Shown in pieces: positions 2,093 to 29,950 of a DNA stretch of 64,000 nucleotides. The first letter of the stretch is position 1. Each line of letters starts with the position of its first letter. The position numbers and the translations under genes are program-made. Below the pieces are notes generated by a model, which ran no database searches, was not told the DNA's origin, and was given only the letters and a program-made list of their open reading frames with translations. The stretch comes from Actinomycetota bacterium (GTDB taxonomy: Bacteria > Actinomycetota > Actinomycetes > Actinomycetales > Microbacteriaceae): positions 2,200 through 66,199 of the forward strand of contig JAAFHT010000001.1 in the NCBI GenBank assembly GCA_013297625.1. The letters are read 5' to 3'.

Positions 2093-3897
2093 GCGTCACC
2101 GGTGTTGACGGCGAAGAGCGCGACGACTTCTCGCGCGCCGAGTCGAAGAGCATGCGGGCGCGCTCACTACGTCTGTTGGGCTCGCTCGTGCGACCCGTGC
2201 GCGGGCGCATCGCGCTCACGATGATTGTCATCGTCATCTCGATCGCGTTGCAGGTCGCGGGGCCGTGGCTCTTGGCGGTCGGCATCAACCAGGGCCTGCC
2301 CGCTCTGCTCGATCAGAACGACTGGATGCCGATTGGGCTCGTCGTTGCCGCCTACCTGTTCAGCGGCATCGCGGGTGCCGGGCTCATCGCCGTGTACCAG
2401 GTCATGAGCGCGCGCCTCAGTCAAGAGATCTTGCTCGATCTGCGCAAGCGCGTTTTCTTGCACACGCAGCGGCTCTCGCTCGAGTTTCACGAGTCGTACA
2501 CCTCGGGCCGCATCATCGCGCGGCAAACGAGCGACCTCGACTCCATTCGTGAGTTGCTTGACTCGGGGCTCAACCAGCTTGTCTCGGGGCTCATCTACAT
2601 GGGCTTCACGGCAGCGGCGCTCGTGCTTCTCGACCCGACCTCGGGGCTCGTGCTCGCAGTCTCGCTGATTCCCCTGCTGTTGCTCACGCGCTGGTTCCAA
2701 GTGCGCTCGCAAACCCTGTTTCGCCAGACCCGCGTGGCGTCGGCCCGCCTGATCGTGCACTTCGTCGAGACCATGACGGGCATCCGTGCCGTCAAGGCCT
2801 TCAGAAAAGAGCCGCGCAACGCACGCCAATTCGCCGGCCACGTCGAGGACTACCGGCACGCCAACGCGCGCGTTATTCAGCTCTTCGGAATCTTCGACCC
2901 GGGGCTCGTGCTCATCGGCAACGTCACGGTCGCGGCCGTGCTCGTGGTCGGCGCGTTCCGCGTCGTCGAAGGCGACCTGCTCGTCGGCTCGCTGCTCGCG
3001 ATCGTGCTCTACACGCGGCGGTTCTTCGACCCCGCCGAAGAGATGGCGATGTTCTACAACTCGTACCAGTCGGCCGCCGCCGCGCTCGAAAAAATCTCGG
3101 GTGTGCTCGAAGAGAAGCCGAGCGTGCCTGACCCAACAACACCCATCGACCTGTGGAAGGCGCGCGGCACCGTGCACTTCGACAAGGTGCGCTTCTCGTA
3201 CAACGACGACGCCGTGGTGTTGCCCGATCTCGAGCTCACGATTCCGGCGGGGCAGACGATCGCGCTCGTGGGCACGACCGGTGCCGGCAAGTCGACGCTC
3301 GCCAAGCTCATCGCGCGGTTCTACGACCCCACCGAGGGCGCCGTGACGCTCGACGACGTTGACCTGCGCAAGCTGCACCCGAAAGACCTGCGGCGCGCGA
3401 TCGTCATGGTGACGCAAGAGGCGTACCTGTTCTCGGGCACCGTGGCCGACAACATTGCGCTCGGCAACCCCGAGGCGAGTCGCGAGCAAATCGTGGCGGC
3501 AGCGAAAGCTGTTGGGGCCCACGACTTCATCGAGTCGCTGCCCCAGGGGTATGAGACCGACGTCAACAAGCGCGGCGGTCGCGTCTCGGCGGGGCAGCGG
3601 CAGTTGATCTCGTTCGCGCGCGCGTTCTTGGCCGACCCCGTCGTGCTGATTCTCGATGAAGCCACGGCCTCGCTCGATATTCCGAGCGAGCGCCTTGTGC
3701 AGCTCGGCCTGCAGACGCTGCTCGCTGATCGCACCGCGGTGATCATCGCGCACCGACTCTCGACCGTCGCGATCGCCGACCGCGTGCTCGTCATGGAGCA
3801 CGGTCGCGTCATCGAAGACGGCACGCCCGCCGAGCTCATCGCGGGCACGGGCAAGTTTGCGCAGTTGCACGCGGCCTGGCGCGAGTCGCTCGTGTAG
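2089..3897 (+). CDS. ABC exporter, fused permease/ATP-binding subunit (second of a pair)
   Basis: ATGA overlap with the upstream gene. Walker [10 protein letters not shown], signature VSAGQRQL, Walker B LILDEAT. Confidence 0.9.
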
Positions 3898-17425: not shown

Positions 17426-18658
17426 ATGACTAGCTCTGACCGCCCGTTTCCGTGGGTGGGCCTCATCACCCTTGCCGCCGCCATCTTCGTGCTCGTCACG
17501 AGTGAGTTCTTGCCCACGGGCCTCTTGCCCATCATGGCGAGCGACCTCGGCGTAACCGAGCCCCAAATCGGGCTGCTCATCACGATCTTCGCGGGCACGG
17601 TCGTGCTCACGGCCGCGCCCCTCGCGGCGCTGACGAGGCACTACTCGCGCAAGAGCCTGCTGCTCGTCGTGCTCGGGGTCTTCGCGCTCGCCAACGTGCT
17701 CGCGGCTATCGCGCCGAGCTACGAAGTGCTTGTGGGTGCGCGCGTGCTCGGCGGCCTCGCGCACGGACTGTTCTGGGCCGTCGCCGGCGCCTACTCGGCG
17801 CACCTCGTGCCGCGGCACCAACTCGCGCGGGCCGTCGCGGTTACGAGCGCGGGCGGCACGATTGCGTTCGTGCTCGGCGTTCCGCTCGGTACGGCTCTCG
17901 GCCTCGCGTTCGGCTGGCGCGCGGCGTTTGGCGTCATCGCCGCGACCGTGGTCGTGCTCGTCGTGGCCGTCATCGTCTTTCTGCCGACGGTCAATCACCA
18001 CGTCTCGCTCGCCACGGGAGAGATTCGCCTGCCGGTGCGCCGCGACCCCACGATGCCCTCGGTGCTCTTCATTTGCGTGCTCGTCGTCATCATCATCACG
18101 GGCCACAACGTGTTCTATACCTACATCGCACCGTTCGTTCTCGATACCGCAGGGTTCGCGCCAGAGTCGCTCAGCATCCTGTTGTTCCTCTATGGCGGCG
18201 CGGGAGCCATCGGCCTCGTGCTCGCGGGCGTGGTCGGCGGCCGCTACCCGCGAGGCGGCCTGTACGGGATGTTCGCGGGCGTCATGCTCGCCGTCAGCAC
18301 CCTCGCGCTCTTCGCCGGAGTTCCCGTGATCGTGGTCATCGCGTTCGTGATCTGGGGCACGGCCTTCGGCGGAATCCCCGCGCTGCTGCAGACCCGATTG
18401 CTCCGCGTCGCCTCACCCAACGTGCGCGACGTGGGCGCTGCCCTGTTGACCACCTCGTTCAACATCGGCATCGGCGGCGGGGCAGCGATCGGCGCGCTGC
18501 TGTACTCGATCTCGGGTACGACCTGGTTGCCCTGGGTCGAGGCCGGAGCCCTCGGGCTCGGCATCGTCGCGCTGCTCATCATGGAGTCGCGGCGCCGCGC
18601 GCGCGGAGTGCCCCTCACCACCCGGCCGATCACGGTCATCGAGGCTGAGTCGCCGTAG
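17426..18658 (+). CDS. MFS transporter (paralogue of 14977..16251)
   Basis: VTSEFLPTGLLP...RKSLL...FALAN..AA.APSY blocks are shared with the other MFS gene. Confidence 0.85.
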   Translation: MTSSDRPFPWVGLITLAAAIFVLVTSEFLPTGLLPIMASDLGVTEPQIGLLITIFAGTVVLTAAPLAALTRHYSRKSLLLVVLGVFALANVLAAIAPSYEVLVGARVLGGLAHGLFWAVAGAYSAHLVPRHQLARAVAVTSAGGTIAFVLGVPLGTALGLAFGWRAAFGVIAATVVVLVVAVIVFLPTVNHHVSLATGEIRLPVRRDPTMPSVLFICVLVVIIITGHNVFYTYIAPFVLDTAGFAPESLSILLFLYGGAGAIGLVLAGVVGGRYPRGGLYGMFAGVMLAVSTLALFAGVPVIVVIAFVIWGTAFGGIPALLQTRLLRVASPNVRDVGAALLTTSFNIGIGGGAAIGALLYSISGTTWLPWVEAGALGLGIVALLIMESRRRARGVPLTTRPITVIEAESP

Positions 18659-18667
18659 TGCATCGGG

Positions 18668-19111
18668 TCAGTCGTAGAAGACCTTTTCAATCGTGTGCCA
18701 GTCGCCACCCAGGAGGGAGTCAGCAGTCGCCTGGTTGACGCGGACCCAGATGTCCGTGGGTTCCATCACGTCGTCAGCAATGGTGAATGCCGCTGCGTCG
18801 AGTTCCATGTGGCGAGCCAACATCAGGTAGATCGAGGGCAGGTCTGCCAGCTGAGCAAGCAGTCCGTTTCCTTCGCCAAGATCGAGGACGAAGATCGCGG
18901 TCCCACCGCCAAGATCGCGAGACTTCACGGACCCAACCATCCCGATGCCGGAGCTGCTCGCCTCGACGATGTGTGGCATCACATCCTCCAGCGACGGAAT
19001 CACGATGCGAGATGACCGTGGAGCATCGCCGACTGACTGCTCATTGTCGACAGGGTCAGGCATAGCGCGATTGTACGGTTGCGGCCGCGGCGACCCCGTT
19101 CGCCCATCCAT
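18668..19111 (-). CDS. hypothetical protein (no family recognised)
   Basis: ORF 18668..19117. AAAGGA sits 6-7 nt before the ATG at 19111. Lower GC than the flanks. Divergent from the HTH gene. Confidence 0.5.
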   Translation of the reverse strand: MDGRTGSPRPQPYNRAMPDPVDNEQSVGDAPRSSRIVIPSLEDVMPHIVEASSSGIGMVGSVKSRDLGGGTAIFVLDLGEGNGLLAQLADLPSIYLMLARHMELDAAAFTIADDVMEPTDIWVRVNQATADSLLGGDWHTIEKVFYD

Positions 19112-19122
19112 CGTCATTCCTT

Positions 19123-19142
19123 TGTATGCTTGTGTGCATACA
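19123..19142. promoter_or_regulatory. inverted repeat TGTATGC-N6-GCATACA, candidate operator
   Basis: Perfect 7-bp arms centred in the 47-bp gap between the divergent genes at 19111 and 19159. Confidence 0.4.
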
Positions 19143-19158
19143 GTAGAGAGGGCTCGGC

Positions 19159-19674
19159 ATGAGCATGCTTATTCGTGAGCAACGCGTGCGCACCGGCGTG
19201 AGCGTGCGCGAGCTCGCCCGCCGTCTCGCCGTGAGTCCCGCGACGATTCAGAACTATGAGCGCGCCGAAGCGAGTGGGCGTATACAACTCGACACGCTAC
19301 GCCGTGCGCTCGCCGCTCTCGACGCGGAGGTGAGTGTTCGAGTGATGCCGTTGGCAACACTGCACCTGGAACGTCGGGAAGAGCGTGTAGCTCTTGAACT
19401 GCACAAGAAGGTCGCGGAGCATCTCCTGCGTGATGCGGATGCAACCCTCGCGAACGTCAACCGCATCTCGATCGAGGCCCGGCGACGAGTTGATCCGTAC
19501 ACGGCCGCGCTCCTCGACGAGTGGATGCGCTTCGCTGACGCACGCGATCTGCCCGGTCTCTTGCACGCGATGACCGCCACAGATCAGCACTCGATCGACA
19601 TGAGGCAGGTCGGACCGTTCAACGGTGTGCTGAGCGACGACGAGCGACTCGACGCGATTCGGCGGGCGCGCTGA
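19159..19674 (+). CDS. XRE-family helix-turn-helix protein with an all-alpha C-terminal domain
   Basis: RTGVSVRELARRLAVSPATIQNYE is a Cro/C1-type HTH. About 100 aa of helical C-terminus of unknown family. GAGAGGG RBS. Confidence 0.8.
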   Translation: MSMLIREQRVRTGVSVRELARRLAVSPATIQNYERAEASGRIQLDTLRRALAALDAEVSVRVMPLATLHLERREERVALELHKKVAEHLLRDADATLANVNRISIEARRRVDPYTAALLDEWMRFADARDLPGLLHAMTATDQHSIDMRQVGPFNGVLSDDERLDAIRRAR

Positions 19675-20225
19675 TGGCCACGAACGCGGAGCTGCAGATC
19701 GCACTGAAAGAGGCGGGGCGCCTCGTTCGGGGTGGTCGGTTACTCGTGATTGGCAGTCAGTCGTTGCTGGGTACCTTCTCGCACGACGAGCTTCCTGCCG
19801 AAGCGACAGCGTCTCTCGAGTTCGACGTGGCAGTCTTCGGGGACATCGACTCGCAGGCGGCCGACCGAATCGACGGAGCGCTTGGAGAGTGGTCAGATTT
19901 CCACGATGCTCATGGCTTCTACGTGCAGGGCGTCGACGTCGACACCGCTGTCGTGCCTGCGGGTTGGCAGGACCGCGTGACGCGGGTGCCGGTGCTCGAA
20001 GCCCCTGACGTCGAGGCAGTGTGCCTAGACCCGCACGACACGTGCGCGGCCAAGCTTGCACGCAATGAGGAGCGGGATCGAGATTTCGTCCGAGCACTCG
20101 TCGACGCTAGCCTGATCGACCCTTTGACCTTGGCTGAGCGCATCACCATGATTCCCGACGACAGGCTTGAAACCGCCCGCAAGCGCGTAGTGCTGGCCTT
20201 CGTGCGAAGTCTCGCGCCGCGATAG
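19674..20225 (+). CDS. minimal nucleotidyltransferase-fold protein (DUF6036-like)
   Basis: [11 protein letters not shown] (hG[GS]), LEFDVAV ([DE]h[DE]h), [23 protein letters not shown]. Its ATG shares one nt with the upstream TGA. Confidence 0.65.
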
Positions 20226-20231
20226 ACTCAT

Positions 20232-20310
20232 CCGCGTCGCAACTGGCGTTCGGATGGGTCACCATCAGGGAGCGACCGACACGGTGTGGGGCCGTACGCC
20301 TGGGCCCCCA
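20232..20310 (+). promoter_or_regulatory. ZTP (pfl-motif) riboswitch
   Basis: GUCGC-AACUGGCG-UUC-GGAUGG-GUCA-CCAUC-AGGGA-GCGAC, a linker, then GGGGCCGUACGCCUGGGCCCC. This matches the P1/P2 and CGCCUGGGC pseudoknot/P3 signature. It lies directly upstream of glyA-folD. Confidence 0.8.
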
Positions 20311-20358
20311 GCAGAACCCCGCTGGCTGCGGCCGGCAGACCCTCGAAGGAGAACTCCC

Positions 20359-26399: not shown

Positions 26400-27350
26400 T
26401 CAAGAATAGCCGATGTCGTCACCGACGAGTGTCACGAGCACGGCCTCGGGCGGGCATGCGAAGCGCACGGGGGCGTAGATCGACGTGCCGATGCCCGCCG
26501 AGACGTTGAGGTACGACGCGTGGTGAGCGTGGTGCCAGACCGAGAGGCCTCGTGCTCGGTCGCGCGGCAGGTCGCAATTGGTGATGATCGCGCCGCCGCC
26601 GGGCAGGCAGACCTGCCCGCCGTGCGTGTGACCCGCGAAGATCACGTCGGCACGCTGCGTCGTGAAGGCGTTGAGCACGCGCTGGTAGGGGGCGTGCGTA
26701 ACGCCGATCATGATGGCCGGGTCATCGGTGTCGTCGTCGTCGAGCTCGCGCAGGGAATCGACGAGTCCGGGAAGAATGTCGAGTCTGTCCCAGCCGCGGT
26801 GTGCATCGTTGGTTCCCATGAACTCAAGAATTGAACCCTTGATCGTCAGTTGCGCAACCGCGTTGTTGAGCGAGGACCAGCCGAGGCGCTCGCCGAGCAG
26901 GCTCTCGAGCGCTTCGGTGTCGAGGGCAACCGCGGTCTCGGTCTCGCCTTTCGAGGGGCCCGCGAGGTACTTGAACGGGTTCTTCGGAGTGGGCGCGAAG
27001 TAGTCGTTTGACCCGTGCACGAAAACACCGGGAACTCCATCGAACGCCATGAGTGCGTCAGTGAGCGCCGGCAGGGCATCGACGTGTCCCAGGTTGTCGC
27101 CCGTGTTGATGACGAGGTCGGGGGCAAGGCTGGCGAGCGACCGAACCCAGGCGACTTTCTCGCGCTGCCAGGGCGCGAGATGCAGGTCGCTCAGGTGCAG
27201 AATGCGAATCGGGTCAGCGCCCGGGGCGAGCACCGGAACAACCTCGCGGCGCACGCGATACGCGCGTCGTTCGAACGCCGAGGCATACACGGCGACGGCC
27301 GCCGCGACCCCGAGGGTCGCGACGGCCGCCGTGCGAAGGGCCGAGTTCAT
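26400..27350 (-). CDS. membrane-anchored metallophosphoesterase
   Basis: N-terminal TM span. LHLSDLHL, TGDN, VHGSND(Y) and AGHTHGGQ motifs. TAATG overlap with the PBP gene. Confidence 0.85.
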   Translation of the reverse strand: MNSALRTAAVATLGVAAAVAVYASAFERRAYRVRREVVPVLAPGADPIRILHLSDLHLAPWQREKVAWVRSLASLAPDLVINTGDNLGHVDALPALTDALMAFDGVPGVFVHGSNDYFAPTPKNPFKYLAGPSKGETETAVALDTEALESLLGERLGWSSLNNAVAQLTIKGSILEFMGTNDAHRGWDRLDILPGLVDSLRELDDDDTDDPAIMIGVTHAPYQRVLNAFTTQRADVIFAGHTHGGQVCLPGGGAIITNCDLPRDRARGLSVWHHAHHASYLNVSAGIGTSIYAPVRFACPPEAVLVTLVGDDIGYS

Positions 27351-29899
27351 TAGCAGCTGAGCTTCGCCTCGGTCAGAGACATCGGCGTGCCGAACAAGAA
27401 CTTTGTACCGGGTGCGGCGCTTTGCTCGACGATCACCCCATCGAGTAGAGGATCGTCGCCGGGTTGTAGCTCGTAACAGAGGGTGGTTACCGCACCGAAG
27501 CCCGCATCAGAGAACGCTGCTAAGGCATCGGCGAGACTTGTCGGAACCGACGTGACGTCGGGAACAACACCCATGTTTCCGAGGCTGAGCGTCACCGACA
27601 CGATCGTTCCGCGCGCGAGCAGCGTGTCGACAGGGAACGACATCGATGCAACGCGGTCGATCGGAATGTCAGAGTCGACCGAGCCCGCGATCTCGAACTT
27701 GAAGCCCAATCCTTCGAGCAACGACTTCGCCTGCTCAGCGGTCTGGCCCGTCACGTCGGGAAGCCGAACTCCGGATCCGGTGAGCAAACGCTCGGGGGGT
27801 GAACCGAACGCGCTTCCGCCGTATTGGGCATTGATGGCGCCTTGCATGACCCGGAAGATCTGGTGACGCAACTGGCCACCGCTCGGGTAGCTACGAATCG
27901 GCACTTTGCCGATAACGTTGCCGACCCACACGGCGGTCGCAACGCGAGAGGTTGAGCCGACGATCCAGGTCTGGTTCGAGCTGTCGGTTGTTCCGGTCTT
28001 GCCCAATACCGGAATGCCGTCGCCGACTCGCGAGGCCGTGGCGGTACCGCTCGAGATGACGGCCTGCATCGGTGCTGCTGCGGCGGCGGCTACCTCGGCA
28101 GACAGCGCGCGCTGGCACTCGACGTCTTGGCCATCTAGTTGGTTGCCATCGCGGTCGACGAATCGGTCGACGATGATGGGCTTGCAGTAGATCCCGCCGC
28201 TGGCGATCGTCGCGAAGGCGTTGGCCATCGTGAGCGGCGCGATTTCGTTGGTGCCGAGCACGGCAGAGGGGTTGGTCTGCAGCGTGCCGCCATCAGCGCG
28301 GTGCACGCCAAGCGATTCGGCTGCGGCACGGATGTCGCACTGATCAAGCTGTTCGCCCACCGAGGCGAAGGCCGTGTTGACCGACTGCACCGTCGCGTTG
28401 AATACGCTCATCGCGGGTGCCGCGGGCGCGTCGTTCTTCGGGTTCCAGGGGCCGCCCCAGGGGCCGCCGCCGTCTTCACACGTGTCGACGAATGCGGCGA
28501 GGTTGCGCTGTCTCACCGTGGCGTCAACGACCTCGTTGAGGCCACGGCCCTCGTTGAGCCACTCCACGAGCGCGAAGACCTTGTAGGTCGACCCCACCTG
28601 GAAGCCACTGGATCCGCCGTAGTCGCGGTCGGTCGCATAGTTGACGGCCGTGGTGCCGACGGCCCCGCCCCCAAACTCGGGGCTGCGGTCATCAAACACT
28701 CGGTTCTGCGCCATCGTGATGACACGGCCCGTGTTCGTCTCGATCGACGTGGCAACGCTACCGATCTCGAGGCGGGGGTCGTTGGTCGGAACGACTTCCC
28801 ACACGCGAGTTTGAGTAGCCGTTTGAAGCGAGAGGTTGAGCGTCGTGTAGACGTCGTAGCCACCAAGCTTCCAAGCGGCCTCACGCTCAGGCTCGTCCGC
28901 GCCGAGTGTTTCGAAGTCGCCCACGCTCTTGAGAACAAAGTCACAGAAGAACTTGGCGTACTGGTTGGCGGCGTAGCACCCACTCTGGGGAGGGGTGAGG
29001 GTAACGAACTCGTCGTCGACAGGAGTATTGATGGCTTCGTCGTGCTCAGCTGCAGAAATAAAGCCTTCAGCGAGCATCGAGTCGAGAATCACATCGCGAC
29101 GGCCCTCGTTGGCCGCGTAGTTGTCGGGACTACCGAGTGAGCGAGCGCCGGGCTGCTGCACGATCGCGATGAGGCTCGCGGCCTGCGCGATCGTGACGTC
29201 TGACGCCGGCACGCCGAAGTATTGCTGCGCGGCGGCCTGGATGCCGTAGGTGTTTCCGCCGAAGCCGGCGATGTTCAAGTAGGCGAGAAGAATCTCGTCT
29301 TTCGTGTAGTTCTTCTCGAGGCCGATGGCGAGCTTGGCCTCTTTCAGCTTGCGCTCGAGGCTCTGCTCTTGGGCTTGATCGATGAGGTCATCACGCTCTT
29401 CAATCGTGTCGGCCTTGAGGGCTTCGGTGATGAAGATGTTCTTGACGAGCTGCATCGTGAGCGTCGATGCGCCCGACTCGATGCCGCCCGAGGTGAGGTT
29501 GCCCAGACCGGCGCGAACGATCGACTGAAGGTCAACACCGTTGTGCTCGTAGAAGCGGCGGTCTTCACCGGCGATCGTGGCTTGCTTGATGTACTCCGAC
29601 ACCTGATCCCACGGCACCTCTTCGCGGTTTTCGGCGTAGACGGTGGCAATGGCGGTGTAGCCATCCGCAGGATTCGCGGTGTTTTGGGCCCACAGCACGT
29701 TGCGCTGTGATTGCTCGTTGATCTTGATGTACTCGGGCAGGCCCTCGAAAATTCCAATGGTGTTGCTCGCGGCGATGCCGGTCACAGCAAGGGCGGGCGT
29801 GACCATTACGGTCACGAGAACGCCGGCGAGGGCGCTCAGACCGAGCATCCCTCCAATGGCGCCGAAAACTCCGGAGGCCTTCTGATTCTGGGCAGACAT
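27350..29899 (-). CDS. class A penicillin-binding protein (transglycosylase/transpeptidase) with C-terminal PASTA repeats
   Basis: EDRRFYEHNGVD and GASTLTMQLVKN (GT51); STYK and KTGTT (transpeptidase). Two VPDVTG/VPDVTS-led PASTA-like repeats. Start at ATG 29899. Confidence 0.9.
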   Translation of the reverse strand: MSAQNQKASGVFGAIGGMLGLSALAGVLVTVMVTPALAVTGIAASNTIGIFEGLPEYIKINEQSQRNVLWAQNTANPADGYTAIATVYAENREEVPWDQVSEYIKQATIAGEDRRFYEHNGVDLQSIVRAGLGNLTSGGIESGASTLTMQLVKNIFITEALKADTIEERDDLIDQAQEQSLERKLKEAKLAIGLEKNYTKDEILLAYLNIAGFGGNTYGIQAAAQQYFGVPASDVTIAQAASLIAIVQQPGARSLGSPDNYAANEGRRDVILDSMLAEGFISAAEHDEAINTPVDDEFVTLTPPQSGCYAANQYAKFFCDFVLKSVGDFETLGADEPEREAAWKLGGYDVYTTLNLSLQTATQTRVWEVVPTNDPRLEIGSVATSIETNTGRVITMAQNRVFDDRSPEFGGGAVGTTAVNYATDRDYGGSSGFQVGSTYKVFALVEWLNEGRGLNEVVDATVRQRNLAAFVDTCEDGGGPWGGPWNPKNDAPAAPAMSVFNATVQSVNTAFASVGEQLDQCDIRAAAESLGVHRADGGTLQTNPSAVLGTNEIAPLTMANAFATIASGGIYCKPIIVDRFVDRDGNQLDGQDVECQRALSAEVAAAAAAPMQAVISSGTATASRVGDGIPVLGKTGTTDSSNQTWIVGSTSRVATAVWVGNVIGKVPIRSYPSGGQLRHQIFRVMQGAINAQYGGSAFGSPPERLLTGSGVRLPDVTGQTAEQAKSLLEGLGFKFEIAGSVDSDIPIDRVASMSFPVDTLLARGTIVSVTLSLGNMGVVPDVTSVPTSLADALAAFSDAGFGAVTTLCYELQPGDDPLLDGVIVEQSAAPGTKFLFGTPMSLTEAKLSC

Positions 29900-29950
29900 A
29901 TGATTGAGGGTACGCCACATGGCTTATGACGACGCTGAATGGACCGCGCG

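What the first reader, a model, noticed from the sequence alone, without database searches (positions are those of the whole stretch)
18668..20225. Low-GC three-gene islet: XRE-HTH protein coupled to a minimal nucleotidyltransferase, plus a divergent orphan gene (candidate toxin-antitoxin / defence module)
This ~1.6 kb block sits between an MFS transporter stop (18658) and the ZTP-glyA-folD operon. By eye it is visibly poorer in G+C (roughly 60% versus about 70% in the flanks) and has weaker third-position GC bias. That suggests horizontal insertion into a core region. The 171-aa protein has a Cro/C1-type HTH and then about 100 aa of helical domain that I cannot assign. That domain contains R129-x6-H136, which sits at the long edge of the HEPN Rx4-6H pattern and could be chance. 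Its TGA shares one nt with the ATG of a 183-aa protein carrying a minimal NTase signature. The signature residues are G27-S28, E49-F-D51 and D119, within [26 protein letters not shown]-regulator plus NTase pairs recall AbiEi/AbiEii-MenA/MenT and MNT/HEPN systems. Here, though, the size, gene order and domain combination differ from those described pairs. The divergent 147-aa protein matches no family I recognise and could be a third component.
Basis: partly seen in the sequence, partly recalled or inferred. Interest (0 to 1): 0.7.

Follow-up and report, generated by a model that had tools for sequence, protein, structure and literature searches.

The report
Candidate nucleotidyltransferase toxin–antitoxin pair
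A 1.56-kb stretch that is missing from a sister genome carries a mobile two-gene cassette: a DNA-binding protein with an undescribed helical domain, and a small DUF6036 nucleotidyltransferase; it behaves like an uncharacterised toxin-antitoxin module, and the third gene next to it is unrelated cargo.

Summary
There are three ORFs at 18668-20225. The block has 62.5% GC against 67.6% for the window, and GC3 of 0.71-0.73 against 0.85-0.89 in the flanks. A sister Microbacterium genome has only about 28 nt between the MFS stop and the ZTP-glyA leader.

The functional unit is two genes, not three. Gene 1 (19159-19674) is an XRE HTH fused to a roughly 100-aa helical domain with no Pfam, NCBIfam or PDB match. 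Gene 2 (19674-20225) is a Pfam DUF6036 nucleotidyltransferase with conserved catalytic residues.

The two families are almost always adjacent:
- In 62 distinct loci, 40 have both genes intact.
- Eight have a broken NTase beside an intact partner.
- None has an intact NTase clearly lacking a partner.

Sixty plasmids carry the NTase and no phage does. A palindrome (19123-19142) sits about 30 nt before gene 1 and recurs in distant relatives. In sibling genomes the same junction holds HigBA or is empty.

Best reading (about 0.6): a toxin-antitoxin module with an autorepressing antitoxin and an NTase toxin that works like MenT, AbiEii or Xre-MNT but belongs to neither family. The orphan gene occurs independently of the pair. 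No toxicity or chemistry has been shown, and no paper mentions DUF6036.

The parts
18659..20217 (.). Segment present in the window but absent from the empty site of the sister genome L010. It lies between the MFS stop and the ZTP-glyA leader.
   Evidence: In blastn against L010, L024 and L015, homology stops at 18658 and resumes at 20213-20219. GC is 62.5% and GC3 0.71-0.73.
18668..19117 (-). Orphan ORF, 149 aa from the first ATG and probably 103-131 aa in reality. It is independent cargo, not part of the pair.
   Evidence: It has only 13 homologues, all in close relatives. It has no Pfam, NCBIfam, PADLOC, PHROG or PDB match. It is present without the pair in L089 and absent from L001 and L036, which have the pair.
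19123..19142 (.). Palindrome TGTATGC-N6-GCATACA, 17 nt before the start codon of gene 1. It is the candidate operator for the HTH and may overlap a -10-like TACAGT.
   Evidence: It occurs once in the window (0.06 expected). It is conserved in L001, L036 and L091-L096, although the sequence further upstream cannot be aligned. Related palindromes sit at the same position in modules with about 44% identical partners. None precedes partners that lack a DNA-binding domain.
19159..19674 (+). Gene 1, the putative antitoxin and autorepressor (171 aa). It has an XRE HTH at residues 4-59, a disordered linker at about 61-66, and a conserved helical C-domain at residues 68-171 (nt 19360-19671).
   Evidence: Pfam HTH_31 and HTH_3 match. 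The AF2 model has pLDDT 90.8, and Foldseek matches HigA2, HipB and ClgR on the HTH only. C-domain conservation: W122 and R149 34/34, H82 31/34, P153, F154, G156 and R163 at 90% or more. The C-domain has no family or structure match.
19674..20225 (+). Gene 2, the putative toxin: a DUF6036-family nucleotidyltransferase (183 aa). Its start overlaps the stop of gene 1 by 1 nt.
   Evidence: PF19502 scores 33.3 bits against a cut-off of 23.6. All 46 aligned homologues hit it, and no other NTase family is hit. Invariant residues are G27, S47, G71, S74, Y83, W98, R101, C117, D122, K127 and D135. S28, E49 and D51 are at 95% or more, and position 119 is acidic in 43/46. The AF2 model has pLDDT 94.9 and an alpha/beta fold.
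20223..20228 (+). TAGACT: the NTase stop codon plus three bases. It is a -10-like hexamer shared with empty-site relatives, just before the ZTP aptamer (context only).
   Evidence: Junction alignment. No terminator-like site lies between the NTase and the riboswitch.
20229..20312 (+). ZMP/ZTP riboswitch leading glyA-folD. This is the host core and the right-hand flank.
   Evidence: Rfam RF01750, 57 bits, E 1e-7.

Best explanation
The core of the islet (19123-20225) is a self-contained, mobile, two-gene toxin-antitoxin-type module.

**Proposed roles**
- Gene 1 encodes the antitoxin. Its N-terminal XRE helix-turn-helix binds the palindrome TGTATGC-N6-GCATACA just upstream and represses the bicistronic operon. 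Its C-terminal helical domain of about 100 aa binds and neutralises the product of gene 2.
- Gene 2 is translationally coupled to gene 1 (TGATG overlap). It encodes a compact DUF6036 nucleotidyltransferase, the growth-inhibiting effector.
- By analogy with MenT/AbiEii and Xre-MNT, the NTase most likely transfers nucleotides onto an essential macromolecule. The 3' ends of tRNA are the favoured guess.
- The orphan gene 18668-19117 is a separate piece of variable cargo at the same hot spot.

**Shown here**
- The domain assignments.
- Conservation of the NTase catalytic residues.
- Near-obligate adjacency of the two families in many genomic contexts and on plasmids.
- Presence or absence of the module at this junction.
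- The conserved palindrome.
- Asymmetric decay: broken NTase beside an intact partner.

**Inferred, not shown**
- Toxicity.
- Neutralisation by direct binding.
- Autorepression.
- The substrate.
For: **Pairing**
- Every DUF6036 locus with enough upstream DNA has the C-domain gene immediately upstream on the same strand (gap -60 to +190 nt). Among 62 distinct loci, 40 have both genes intact and none has an intact NTase clearly lacking a partner. One partner, L126, matches only 76% of the domain profile.
- The pairing holds in unrelated chromosomal contexts. It also holds on beta-proteobacterial and Rhodococcus plasmids.

**Polarity**
- Eight distinct loci have a frameshifted or internally deleted NTase beside an intact partner. 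One such deletion is seen on 8 contigs from several samples.
- A stand-alone C-domain gene without any NTase exists.
- The opposite pattern was not found.

**Antitoxin-like modularity**
- The C-domain occurs alone (about 100-120 aa) or fused to an XRE, HTH_23-type or winged-helix head.
- Palindromes about 25-50 nt before the start codon (L149's, the weakest, at about -20) are found only where a DNA-binding head is present. They change with the type of head.

**Enzyme under selection**
- G27, S28, S47, E49, D51, the acidic position 119, D122, K127 and D135 are conserved in 43-46 of 46 sequences.

**Selfish-element behaviour**
- The module is absent from L010 (99.5% identical MFS), L024, L015, L016 and L020.
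- The same junction holds HigB/HigA in L012 and a HigB stump with an intact HigA in L014.
- GC3 is atypical for the host.
- 60 PLSDB plasmids carry the NTase, 29 of them conjugative, and no phage does.
- On pALIDE01 the pair lies next to an AbiEii pair.

**Precedents**
- NTase toxins MenT1-4 and AbiEii (PMC7450476, PMC11375011).
- The Xre-MNT TA system with an autorepressing Xre antitoxin (PMC8406773).
Against: - There is no experimental evidence of toxicity or rescue for any member. No paper in the library mentions DUF6036 or PF19502.
- The NTase has no hit in PADLOC, NCBIfam or PHROGs.
- Foldseek gives no significant structural neighbour. The best PDB hit has E 0.03 and TM 0.21. The NTase fold therefore rests on Pfam's classification and on motifs, not on a confident structural match.
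- The C-domain has several near-invariant polar residues (H82, R149, Q150, R163). That is more than a typical passive antitoxin has, so it could have an activity of its own.
- The decay asymmetry comes partly from metagenome contigs, where frameshifts can be assembly errors. The loci were also collected through NTase peptide patterns.
- Whether the module was gained or lost at this junction cannot be told. No repeats, integrase or transposase flank it.
Confidence: 0.6

Rival explanations
1. Reversed polarity, as in HEPN-MNT (type VII). The helical C-domain of gene 1 would be the toxin, for example a HEPN-like RNase. The NTase would be the antitoxin and would inactivate it by nucleotidylylation.
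For: - NTases do act as antitoxins in MntA-HepT. Weak Foldseek hits include MntA chains 7aer_A and 6m6w_A.
- The C-domain carries near-invariant polar residues (H82, R149, Q150, R163).
- In the close clade there is an R76-x5-H82 spacing that fits Rx4-6H.
Against: - In the wider family R76 is Arg in only 18 of 34 sequences.
- None of the 34 C-domain sequences hits a HEPN, HepT or other Pfam model even at E<=10. The profile finds nothing in the PDB.
- The NTase decays while the partner stays intact in 8 loci. That would be lethal if the NTase were the antitoxin.
- The DNA-binding head is fused to the C-domain, which is the usual place for an antitoxin.
- The gene order is the opposite of MNT-HEPN.
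Confidence: 0.07
2. An abortive-infection or anti-phage defence pair. The same two proteins would act mainly as a phage-triggered growth arrest system, as AbiE does. This overlaps with the TA reading rather than excluding it.
For: - The closest functional analogue, AbiEi/AbiEii, is an Abi system (PMC7450476).
- The module sits in a variable hot spot and on conjugative plasmids, once next to an AbiEii pair.
Against: - The NTase has no PADLOC model.
- There are no recognisable defence genes around it in the window or in the six chromosomal contexts inspected.
- No phage-encoded homologue was found.
- Nothing here tests phage resistance.
Confidence: 0.2
3. A non-toxic regulator-enzyme pair. A housekeeping or accessory nucleotidyltransferase, for example one that modifies small molecules or antibiotics or takes part in signalling, would be controlled by a dedicated HTH regulator.
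For: - Small NTases that modify antibiotics exist, and HTH regulators next to enzymes are common.
- No toxicity has been shown.
- The module reads straight into the ZTP-glyA leader without a terminator.
Against: - The conserved partner is the non-DNA-binding C-domain, which often occurs without any HTH. The link is therefore protein to protein, not regulator to promoter.
- The start and stop codons of the two genes overlap.
- The genomic contexts are unrelated to each other. The glyA neighbourhood is confined to one Microbacteriaceae clade.
- The module is present or absent among near-identical genomes and is replaced by HigBA at the same site.
Confidence: 0.12
4. A three-component system in which the divergent orphan gene 18668-19117 is a functional partner of the pair.
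For: - The orphan lies next to the pair in the window and in L091-L094.
- It shares the low GC3 of 0.71.
Against: - The orphan occurs without the pair in L089 and L090.
- The pair occurs without the orphan in L001, L002, L036 and all distant loci and plasmids.
- Homology between the window and L001 or L036 starts only at 19118-19123, excluding the orphan.
- The orphan family has 13 members, all in one clade.
Confidence: 0.03

Closest known systems
MenA/MenT and AbiEi/AbiEii (DUF1814 NTase toxins, type IV/VII TA; PMC7450476, PMC11375011)
   Same: - The upstream antitoxin gene is often DNA-binding and the downstream NTase is the toxin.
- The antitoxin partners are diverse.
- The modules are found on mobile elements.
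- The order of conserved residue types matches: G[GS], then [ST]-x-[DE]-x-[DE], then K, then D. Here that is S47-x-E49-x-D51...K127...D135. MenT1 has T39-x-D41...K137...D152 and MenT3 has S78-x-D80...K189...D211.
   Different: - No member hits PF08843 even at E<=10.
- hhalign against an AbiEii protein gives 0.6% probability.
- The protein is about 180 aa against about 200-300 aa.
- The K-to-D spacing is 8 residues against 15-22.
- The partner domain is unrelated to AbiEi (COG5340), MazE-like MenA1 or COG4861.
- Foldseek similarity to the DUF1814-type structure 4o8s is not significant (E 0.42).
Xre-MNT type II TA of Streptococcus suis (PMC8406773)
   Same: - An XRE-family antitoxin gene is followed by an NTase-domain toxin gene.
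- The antitoxin represses its own promoter, which contains palindromes.
   Different: - MNTss is described as similar to kanamycin nucleotidyltransferase, which is a different NTase family from DUF6036.
- Nothing in that paper describes the conserved C-terminal domain found here.
- I did not compare the sequences because they were not at hand.
MntA-HepT (MNT-HEPN, type VII TA)
   Same: A small NTase is paired with a small helical protein in a two-gene mobile module.
   Different: - There the NTase is the antitoxin and comes first.
- The partner is a HEPN RNase with an invariant Rx4-6H motif.
- Here the order is reversed, no conserved Rx4-6H exists, no HEPN model is hit, and the decay pattern points to the NTase as the dispensable (toxic) gene.
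Mobile mystery protein A/B (TIGR02612 and TIGR02613; XRE protein plus Fic-domain protein)
   Same: - Gene 1 matches TIGR02612 over residues 5-99 (E 4.6e-12). That covers the HTH plus the first helix beyond it.
- Both are XRE-headed partners of a nucleotidyl-transferring enzyme on mobile DNA.
   Different: - The score of 46 bits is far below the cut-off of 122.6.
- Stand-alone C-domains do not hit it.
- The enzyme here is an NTase, not Fic.
Pfam DUF6036 (PF19502), 'nucleotidyltransferase of unknown function'
   Same: Gene 2 and all 46 aligned homologues score above the gathering threshold. NCBI names relatives 'DUF6036 family nucleotidyltransferase'.
   Different: The family has no described function, partner or literature. 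The scores are modest (best E 2.6e-12), so this clade is peripheral to the seed.

Membership tests
Pfam DUF6036 (PF19502) | Score at or above the curated gathering threshold of the family HMM | tested here: met
   33.3 bits against 23.6 for the window protein. 46 of 46 aligned homologues match.
Pol-beta-like nucleotidyltransferase fold | An hG[GS] motif, a [DE]x[DE] pair on the next strand, and a third acidic residue | tested here: met
   G27 46/46, S28 45/46, E49 44/46, D51 45/46, position 119 acidic 43/46, D122 46/46. In the AF2 model the motifs fall at the end of a strand and on strands.
Pol-beta-like nucleotidyltransferase fold | Significant structural similarity to solved NTases | tested here: inconclusive
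   The top PDB hits are NTases (TUT4 2ikf, JHP933 4o8s, NF90, Megavirus PAP, MntA). All have E>=0.03 and TM<=0.36. BFVD also gives nothing significant.
AbiEii/MenT (DUF1814, PF08843) | Match to the family HMM or profile | tested here: not met
   None of the 46 members hits PF08843 at E<=10. hhalign against the pALIDE01 AbiEii protein gives 0.6% probability.
AbiEii/MenT (DUF1814, PF08843) | Four conserved motifs, including the toxin-specific Lys and downstream Asp | tested here: inconclusive
   S47-x-E49-x-D51, K127 and D135 are conserved in the same order as T39/D41/K137/D152 of MenT1 and S78/D80/K189/D211 of MenT3 (PMC11375011, PMC7450476). This is positional analogy only, with different spacing.
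AbiEii/MenT (DUF1814, PF08843) | Toxicity through nucleotide addition to tRNA acceptor ends | not testable with these tools
   This needs expression and tRNA assays.
MNT-HEPN (MntA-HepT, type VII) | The partner is a HEPN domain with an invariant Rx4-6H | tested here: not met
   R129 is Arg in 7/34 and R76 in 18/34. No HEPN or HepT Pfam hit in the 34 members. No PDB hit. A fold search on the isolated C-domain could not be run.
MNT-HEPN (MntA-HepT, type VII) | The NTase (PF01909 type) lies upstream and acts as the antitoxin | tested here: not met
   The NTase is downstream and does not hit PF01909. The NTase decays beside an intact partner.
Type II-style toxin-antitoxin module (generic) | Two small co-oriented genes with overlapping or abutting reading frames, conserved as a pair across unrelated contexts | tested here: met
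   A 1-nt overlap here and 4-14 nt overlaps elsewhere. 40 of 40 informative intact loci are paired.
Type II-style toxin-antitoxin module (generic) | The antitoxin carries a DNA-binding domain and an operator lies in its own promoter | tested here: inconclusive
   The HTH is present. A conserved palindrome sits at 19123-19142 and at equivalent positions in distant modules. Binding was not tested.
Type II-style toxin-antitoxin module (generic) | The toxin inhibits growth and the cognate antitoxin neutralises it | not testable with these tools
Mobile mystery protein A (TIGR02612) | Score at or above NCBIfam's curated cut-off | tested here: not met
   46.1 bits against 122.6.
Known anti-phage defence systems (PADLOC-DB 2.0) | A hit to a system-specific protein model | tested here: not met
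   The NTase and the orphan have no hits. Gene 1 matches only generic HTH models such as capH and HTH_VI.

The most novel reading that the evidence does not exclude
The pair defines an uncharacterised TA family found in Actinomycetota and Pseudomonadota and on plasmids.

- The effector would be a compact NTase with a MenT-like set of active-site residues (S-x-E-x-D...K...D).
- It would be controlled by a previously unannotated antitoxin domain of about 100 aa (motif W...[LM]-R-[QN]-x-x-P-F-x-G...E-R). This domain is swapped between different DNA-binding heads.
- The unusually conserved Arg and His residues of that domain would act in the toxin's active site. One possibility is that they trigger auto-modification of the invariant S47, as MenA does for MenT. 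Simple sequestration would then not be the mechanism.
Probability: 0.15. Interest if true: 0.65.

Novelty: new variant of a known kind. Interest (0 to 1): 0.5.

Why it matters
NTase toxins (MenT, AbiEii) are a recently opened class of translation poisons. They have unusual control mechanisms and are of interest in phage defence and in tuberculosis.

If the DUF6036 pair is a working TA system, three things follow:
- A third, much smaller NTase-toxin lineage is added.
- A new antitoxin domain is added, with at least 229 sequence clusters.
- A function is assigned to a Pfam DUF and to many 'hypothetical' plasmid genes, including genes next to the transfer genes of Rhodococcus conjugative plasmids.

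For this genome the practical point is modest. The MFS/glyA junction is a hot spot where TA cassettes come and go. The cassette ends in the -10-like hexamer just before the ZTP-glyA leader with no terminator, so it could affect transcription of a one-carbon-metabolism operon.

Tried and rejected
- **HEPN reading of gene 1.** Rejected. R129 and H136 are not conserved. R76-x5-H82 holds only in the close clade. There are no HEPN hits.
- **Orphan as third component.** Rejected on distribution.
- **Sequence searches of the PDB.** The NTase profile, the C-domain profile, the orphan and an AbiEii protein all returned nothing useful. For the partner, only HTH matches came back.
- **Foldseek.** The NTase model against the PDB and BFVD gave no significant match. 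The whole partner model matched only on its HTH, so the fold of the C-domain remains unplaced.
- **PADLOC, NCBIfam and PHROGs.** No hits for the NTase or the orphan. NCBIfam has no hits for stand-alone C-domains.
- **hhalign of the NTase profile against a single AbiEii sequence.** Only the G[GS] and [DE]x[DE] motifs aligned, at 0.6% probability.
- **Mobility signatures.** I looked for flanking direct or inverted repeats, an integrase or a transposase around the insert. None was found.
- **Literature.** 'DUF6036' and 'PF19502' return zero papers.
- **A functional link to glyA or ZTP.** Rejected, because the pair sits in unrelated contexts elsewhere.
Full report
**1. The observation**

The three ORFs exist at the stated coordinates:
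- 19159..19674 on the plus strand, 171 aa.
- 19674..20225 on the plus strand, 183 aa. Base 19674 serves both as the last base of the TGA and as the first base of the ATG.

On the left the MFS transporter (PF07690) stops at 18658. On the right a ZMP/ZTP riboswitch lies at 20229-20312 (RF01750, 57 bits), followed by glyA and folD.

- The block is 62.5% GC. The window mean is 67.6%, and only 1.2% of windows of the same length are as low.
- GC3 is 0.71-0.73 in the three genes, against 0.85-0.89 in the surrounding genes.

**2. Origin and the empty site**

The MFS protein finds its best relative in a Microbacterium sp. MAG (PNMM01000002.1, locus L010). Identities there are 99.5% for MFS, 97% for LtrA, 97% for glyA and 98% for folD.

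In that genome the MFS stop is followed after about 28 nt by the same leader sequence that follows the NTase gene in the window. The whole 1559-nt segment 18659-20217 is missing. L024, L015, L016 and L020 also lack it.

Other relatives carry different cargo at the same junction:
- L012 has a HigB-like toxin (PF05015, E 2e-19) followed by a HigA-type XRE antitoxin.
- L014 has a 30-codon HigB stump and an intact HigA.
- L001, L002, L036 and L091-L096 have the HTH-NTase pair. They combine it with different neighbours: a small membrane protein, a second LtrA, or a sigma factor.

The junction is therefore a hot spot for small accessory cassettes, two of which are TA-type. No repeats, integrase or transposase flank the insert. 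Gain and loss cannot be told apart. Exchange by recombination in the conserved flanks is the simplest route, but that is inference.

**3. Two units, not three**

Homology between the window and the relatives that carry the pair starts at 19118-19123 and runs through to glyA. The orphan gene is excluded.

The orphan has 13 homologues of 103-136 aa, all in this clade. It occurs without the pair in L089 and L090. The pair occurs without it in L001, L002 and L036 and everywhere else. It has no match in Pfam, NCBIfam, PADLOC, PHROGs or the PDB. I treat it as independent cargo of unknown function.

**4. Gene 2, the NTase**

It belongs to Pfam DUF6036, 'nucleotidyltransferase of unknown function' (33.3 bits against a threshold of 23.6). 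All 96 database relatives carry that domain and none has an informative name.

In an alignment of 46 relatives at 33-95% identity, these residues are conserved:
- G27 (46/46), S28 (45/46), S47 (46/46), E49 (44/46) and D51 (45/46).
- Position 119 is acidic in 43/46.
- D122, K127 and D135 are each 46/46.

The AlphaFold model is confident (pLDDT 94.9, pTM 0.90). Foldseek nevertheless finds no significant neighbour. The best PDB hits are NTases (TUT4, JHP933, NF90, a viral poly(A) polymerase, MntA), but with E>=0.03 and TM<=0.36. BFVD gives nothing.

No member hits AbiEii (PF08843) or any other NTase family, even at E<=10. hhalign against an AbiEii protein aligns only the G[GS] and [DE]x[DE] motifs.

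At the level of residue types, S47-x-E49-x-D51...K127...D135 follows the same order as T39-x-D41...K137...D152 in MenT1 and S78-x-D80...K189...D211 in MenT3 (PMC11375011, PMC7450476). This is an analogy, not shown homology.

**5. Gene 1, the partner**

Residues 4-59 form an XRE helix-turn-helix (HTH_31 and HTH_3). Their closest structures are the antitoxins HigA2 and HipB and the regulator ClgR.

Residues 68-171 form a confidently modelled helical domain (pLDDT about 94-97) after a disordered linker. This C-domain is the conserved part of the family:
- W122 and R149 are invariant (34/34).
- H82 is present in 31/34.
- P153, F154, G156 and R163 are at 90% or more.

A single-sequence phmmer search of 1.84 billion cluster representatives finds 229 clusters at E<=1e-3. 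Many are stand-alone proteins of about 100-120 aa. Others carry different N-termini: XRE, an HTH_23-like head in Arthrobacter L003, or a 306-aa winged-helix form in L008.

The domain has no Pfam, NCBIfam or PDB match.

An R76-x5-H82 spacing exists only in the close clade (R76 in 18/34). A HEPN assignment is therefore not supported.

**6. The two families travel together**

I ran profile HMMs of both families over every locus fetched. Among 62 distinct NTase loci:
- 40 have both genes intact and adjacent on the same strand.
- 7 have too little upstream DNA to tell.
- 1 has a partner covering 76% of the profile.
- None has an intact NTase with no partner.

The contexts are unrelated to each other: proline dehydrogenase/LysR, KaiC-like, ABC transporters, PEP synthase.

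tblastn finds the NTase on 60 PLSDB plasmids, mainly Rhodococcus, Cupriavidus and Mycobacterium/Mycolicibacterium. Of these, 29 are conjugative. It is on no phage record.

Three plasmid loci were inspected, and in all three the overlapping upstream gene matches the C-domain HMM at E 6e-13 to 6e-18:
- Comamonas: a 225-aa XRE partner.
- Rhodococcus ruber: a 116-aa partner, between the MobF relaxase gene and a TraM-recognition-domain gene.
- Alicycliphilus pALIDE01: a 109-aa partner, directly after a small gene plus AbiEii pair.

**7. Which gene is the toxin?**

Eight distinct loci have a frameshifted or internally deleted NTase next to an intact partner. One deletion variant recurs on 8 contigs from several samples, so it is not an assembly error. 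One Arthrobacter locus has a stand-alone C-domain gene with no NTase at all. I found no clear case of the opposite pattern.

This is the asymmetry expected if the NTase is the harmful, dispensable gene and the partner is the protective gene. The DNA-binding head also sits on the partner, as in most antitoxins.

Two caveats apply. Some frameshifts may be sequencing errors. The loci were collected through NTase peptide patterns, so partner-only loci are under-sampled.

**8. Regulation**

The perfect palindrome TGTATGC-N6-GCATACA lies at 19123-19142, 17 nt before the start codon. It is unique in the window, with 0.06 expected by chance.

It is conserved in nine related loci even though everything further upstream is unalignable.

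Modules whose partners are only about 44% identical keep a related palindrome at the same place:
- L004: TGTATAGT-N4-ACTATACA.
- L006: CCCTGTATAG-N6-CTATACAGGG.
- The winged-helix type (L008) has a different palindrome.
- The two partners without a DNA-binding head (L150, L151) have none.

This fits autorepression by the partner, as shown experimentally for Xre-MNT of S. suis (PMC8406773). Binding was not tested here.

**9. Explanation and its limits**

The most likely reading (confidence about 0.6) is a TA-type module. Its antitoxin is autorepressing and built from an HTH plus a new neutralising domain. Its toxin is a compact NTase. The module works like MenAT/AbiE or Xre-MNT but belongs to neither family.

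The substrate is unknown. tRNA 3' ends are the best guess from precedent.

Nothing here demonstrates toxicity, interaction or chemistry. No paper in the library mentions DUF6036 or PF19502.

Rival readings are given separately with their weights: reversed polarity of the HEPN-MNT type (0.07), a primarily anti-phage role (0.2, not exclusive), a benign regulator-enzyme pair (0.12), and a three-gene system (0.03).

**10. Novelty and score**

Both proteins fall outside the characterised families, and the partner domain has no Pfam, NCBIfam or PDB match. The logic, however, is that of known NTase-toxin TA systems. I rate it a new variant of a known kind.

Interest is 0.5. It is a well-supported, testable candidate for a new TA family with a new antitoxin domain and a clear plasmid association. 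Computational prediction of new TA families is common, though, and the key property, toxicity, is untested.

Noticed in passing
L012:7907-8490; L014:6380-6800 (same junction as window 18659-20217): In two sibling genomes the same MFS/glyA junction holds a HigB-like toxin plus a HigA antitoxin (L012), or a 30-codon HigB stump with an intact HigA (L014). This makes the site a hot spot for TA cassettes.
   Followed up: yes
window 20200-20235: The NTase stop codon TAG (20223-20225) is the first half of TAGACT. This is a -10-like hexamer shared with empty-site relatives and lies just before the ZTP aptamer. No terminator separates the cassette from the riboswitch-glyA-folD operon, so read-through is possible.
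   Followed up: partly
L012 (CALRWH020000081.1) and L023 (WNZI01000053.1): These records are titled 'Pseudomonas synxantha MAG' and 'Vibrio cholerae strain 35D'. L012 carries MFS, LtrA and glyA genes at 97-98% aa identity to the window; L023 matches only the MFS, at 57%. They are probably misbinned or contaminant contigs.
   Followed up: no
L151:1630-3567 (Alicycliphilus denitrificans plasmid pALIDE01): A DUF6036 pair lies directly downstream of a 103-aa gene plus an AbiEii-family NTase (PF08843). Two different NTase-type modules therefore sit in tandem on a conjugative plasmid, followed by an integrase.
   Followed up: partly
L155:2501-2824 (Arthrobacter sp. UYEF2): A stand-alone C-domain gene has no NTase gene beside it. 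The source names it 'putative heme iron utilization protein', which looks like a misannotation.
   Followed up: partly
L143-L145, L153, L154 (about 3000-3560 in each): The NTase gene has an internal deletion that removes the D122/K127 region, while the upstream partner is intact. The same variant is seen on 8 contigs from several samples.
   Followed up: yes
window 27350-29920 (-): The other low-GC stretch of the window (about 58-62% at 28.7-30.0 kb) lies inside a class A penicillin-binding protein gene (transglycosylase + transpeptidase + PASTA). This is an ordinary core gene, not an islet.
   Followed up: partly
L001:1302-2342, L010:3579-4595 (equivalent position upstream of window 16084): A second MFS transporter about 50% identical to the one at 17426-18658 lies on the other side of the LtrA gene in relatives. 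Some relatives (L036, L089) also carry a second LtrA copy inside the variable junction.
   Followed up: no
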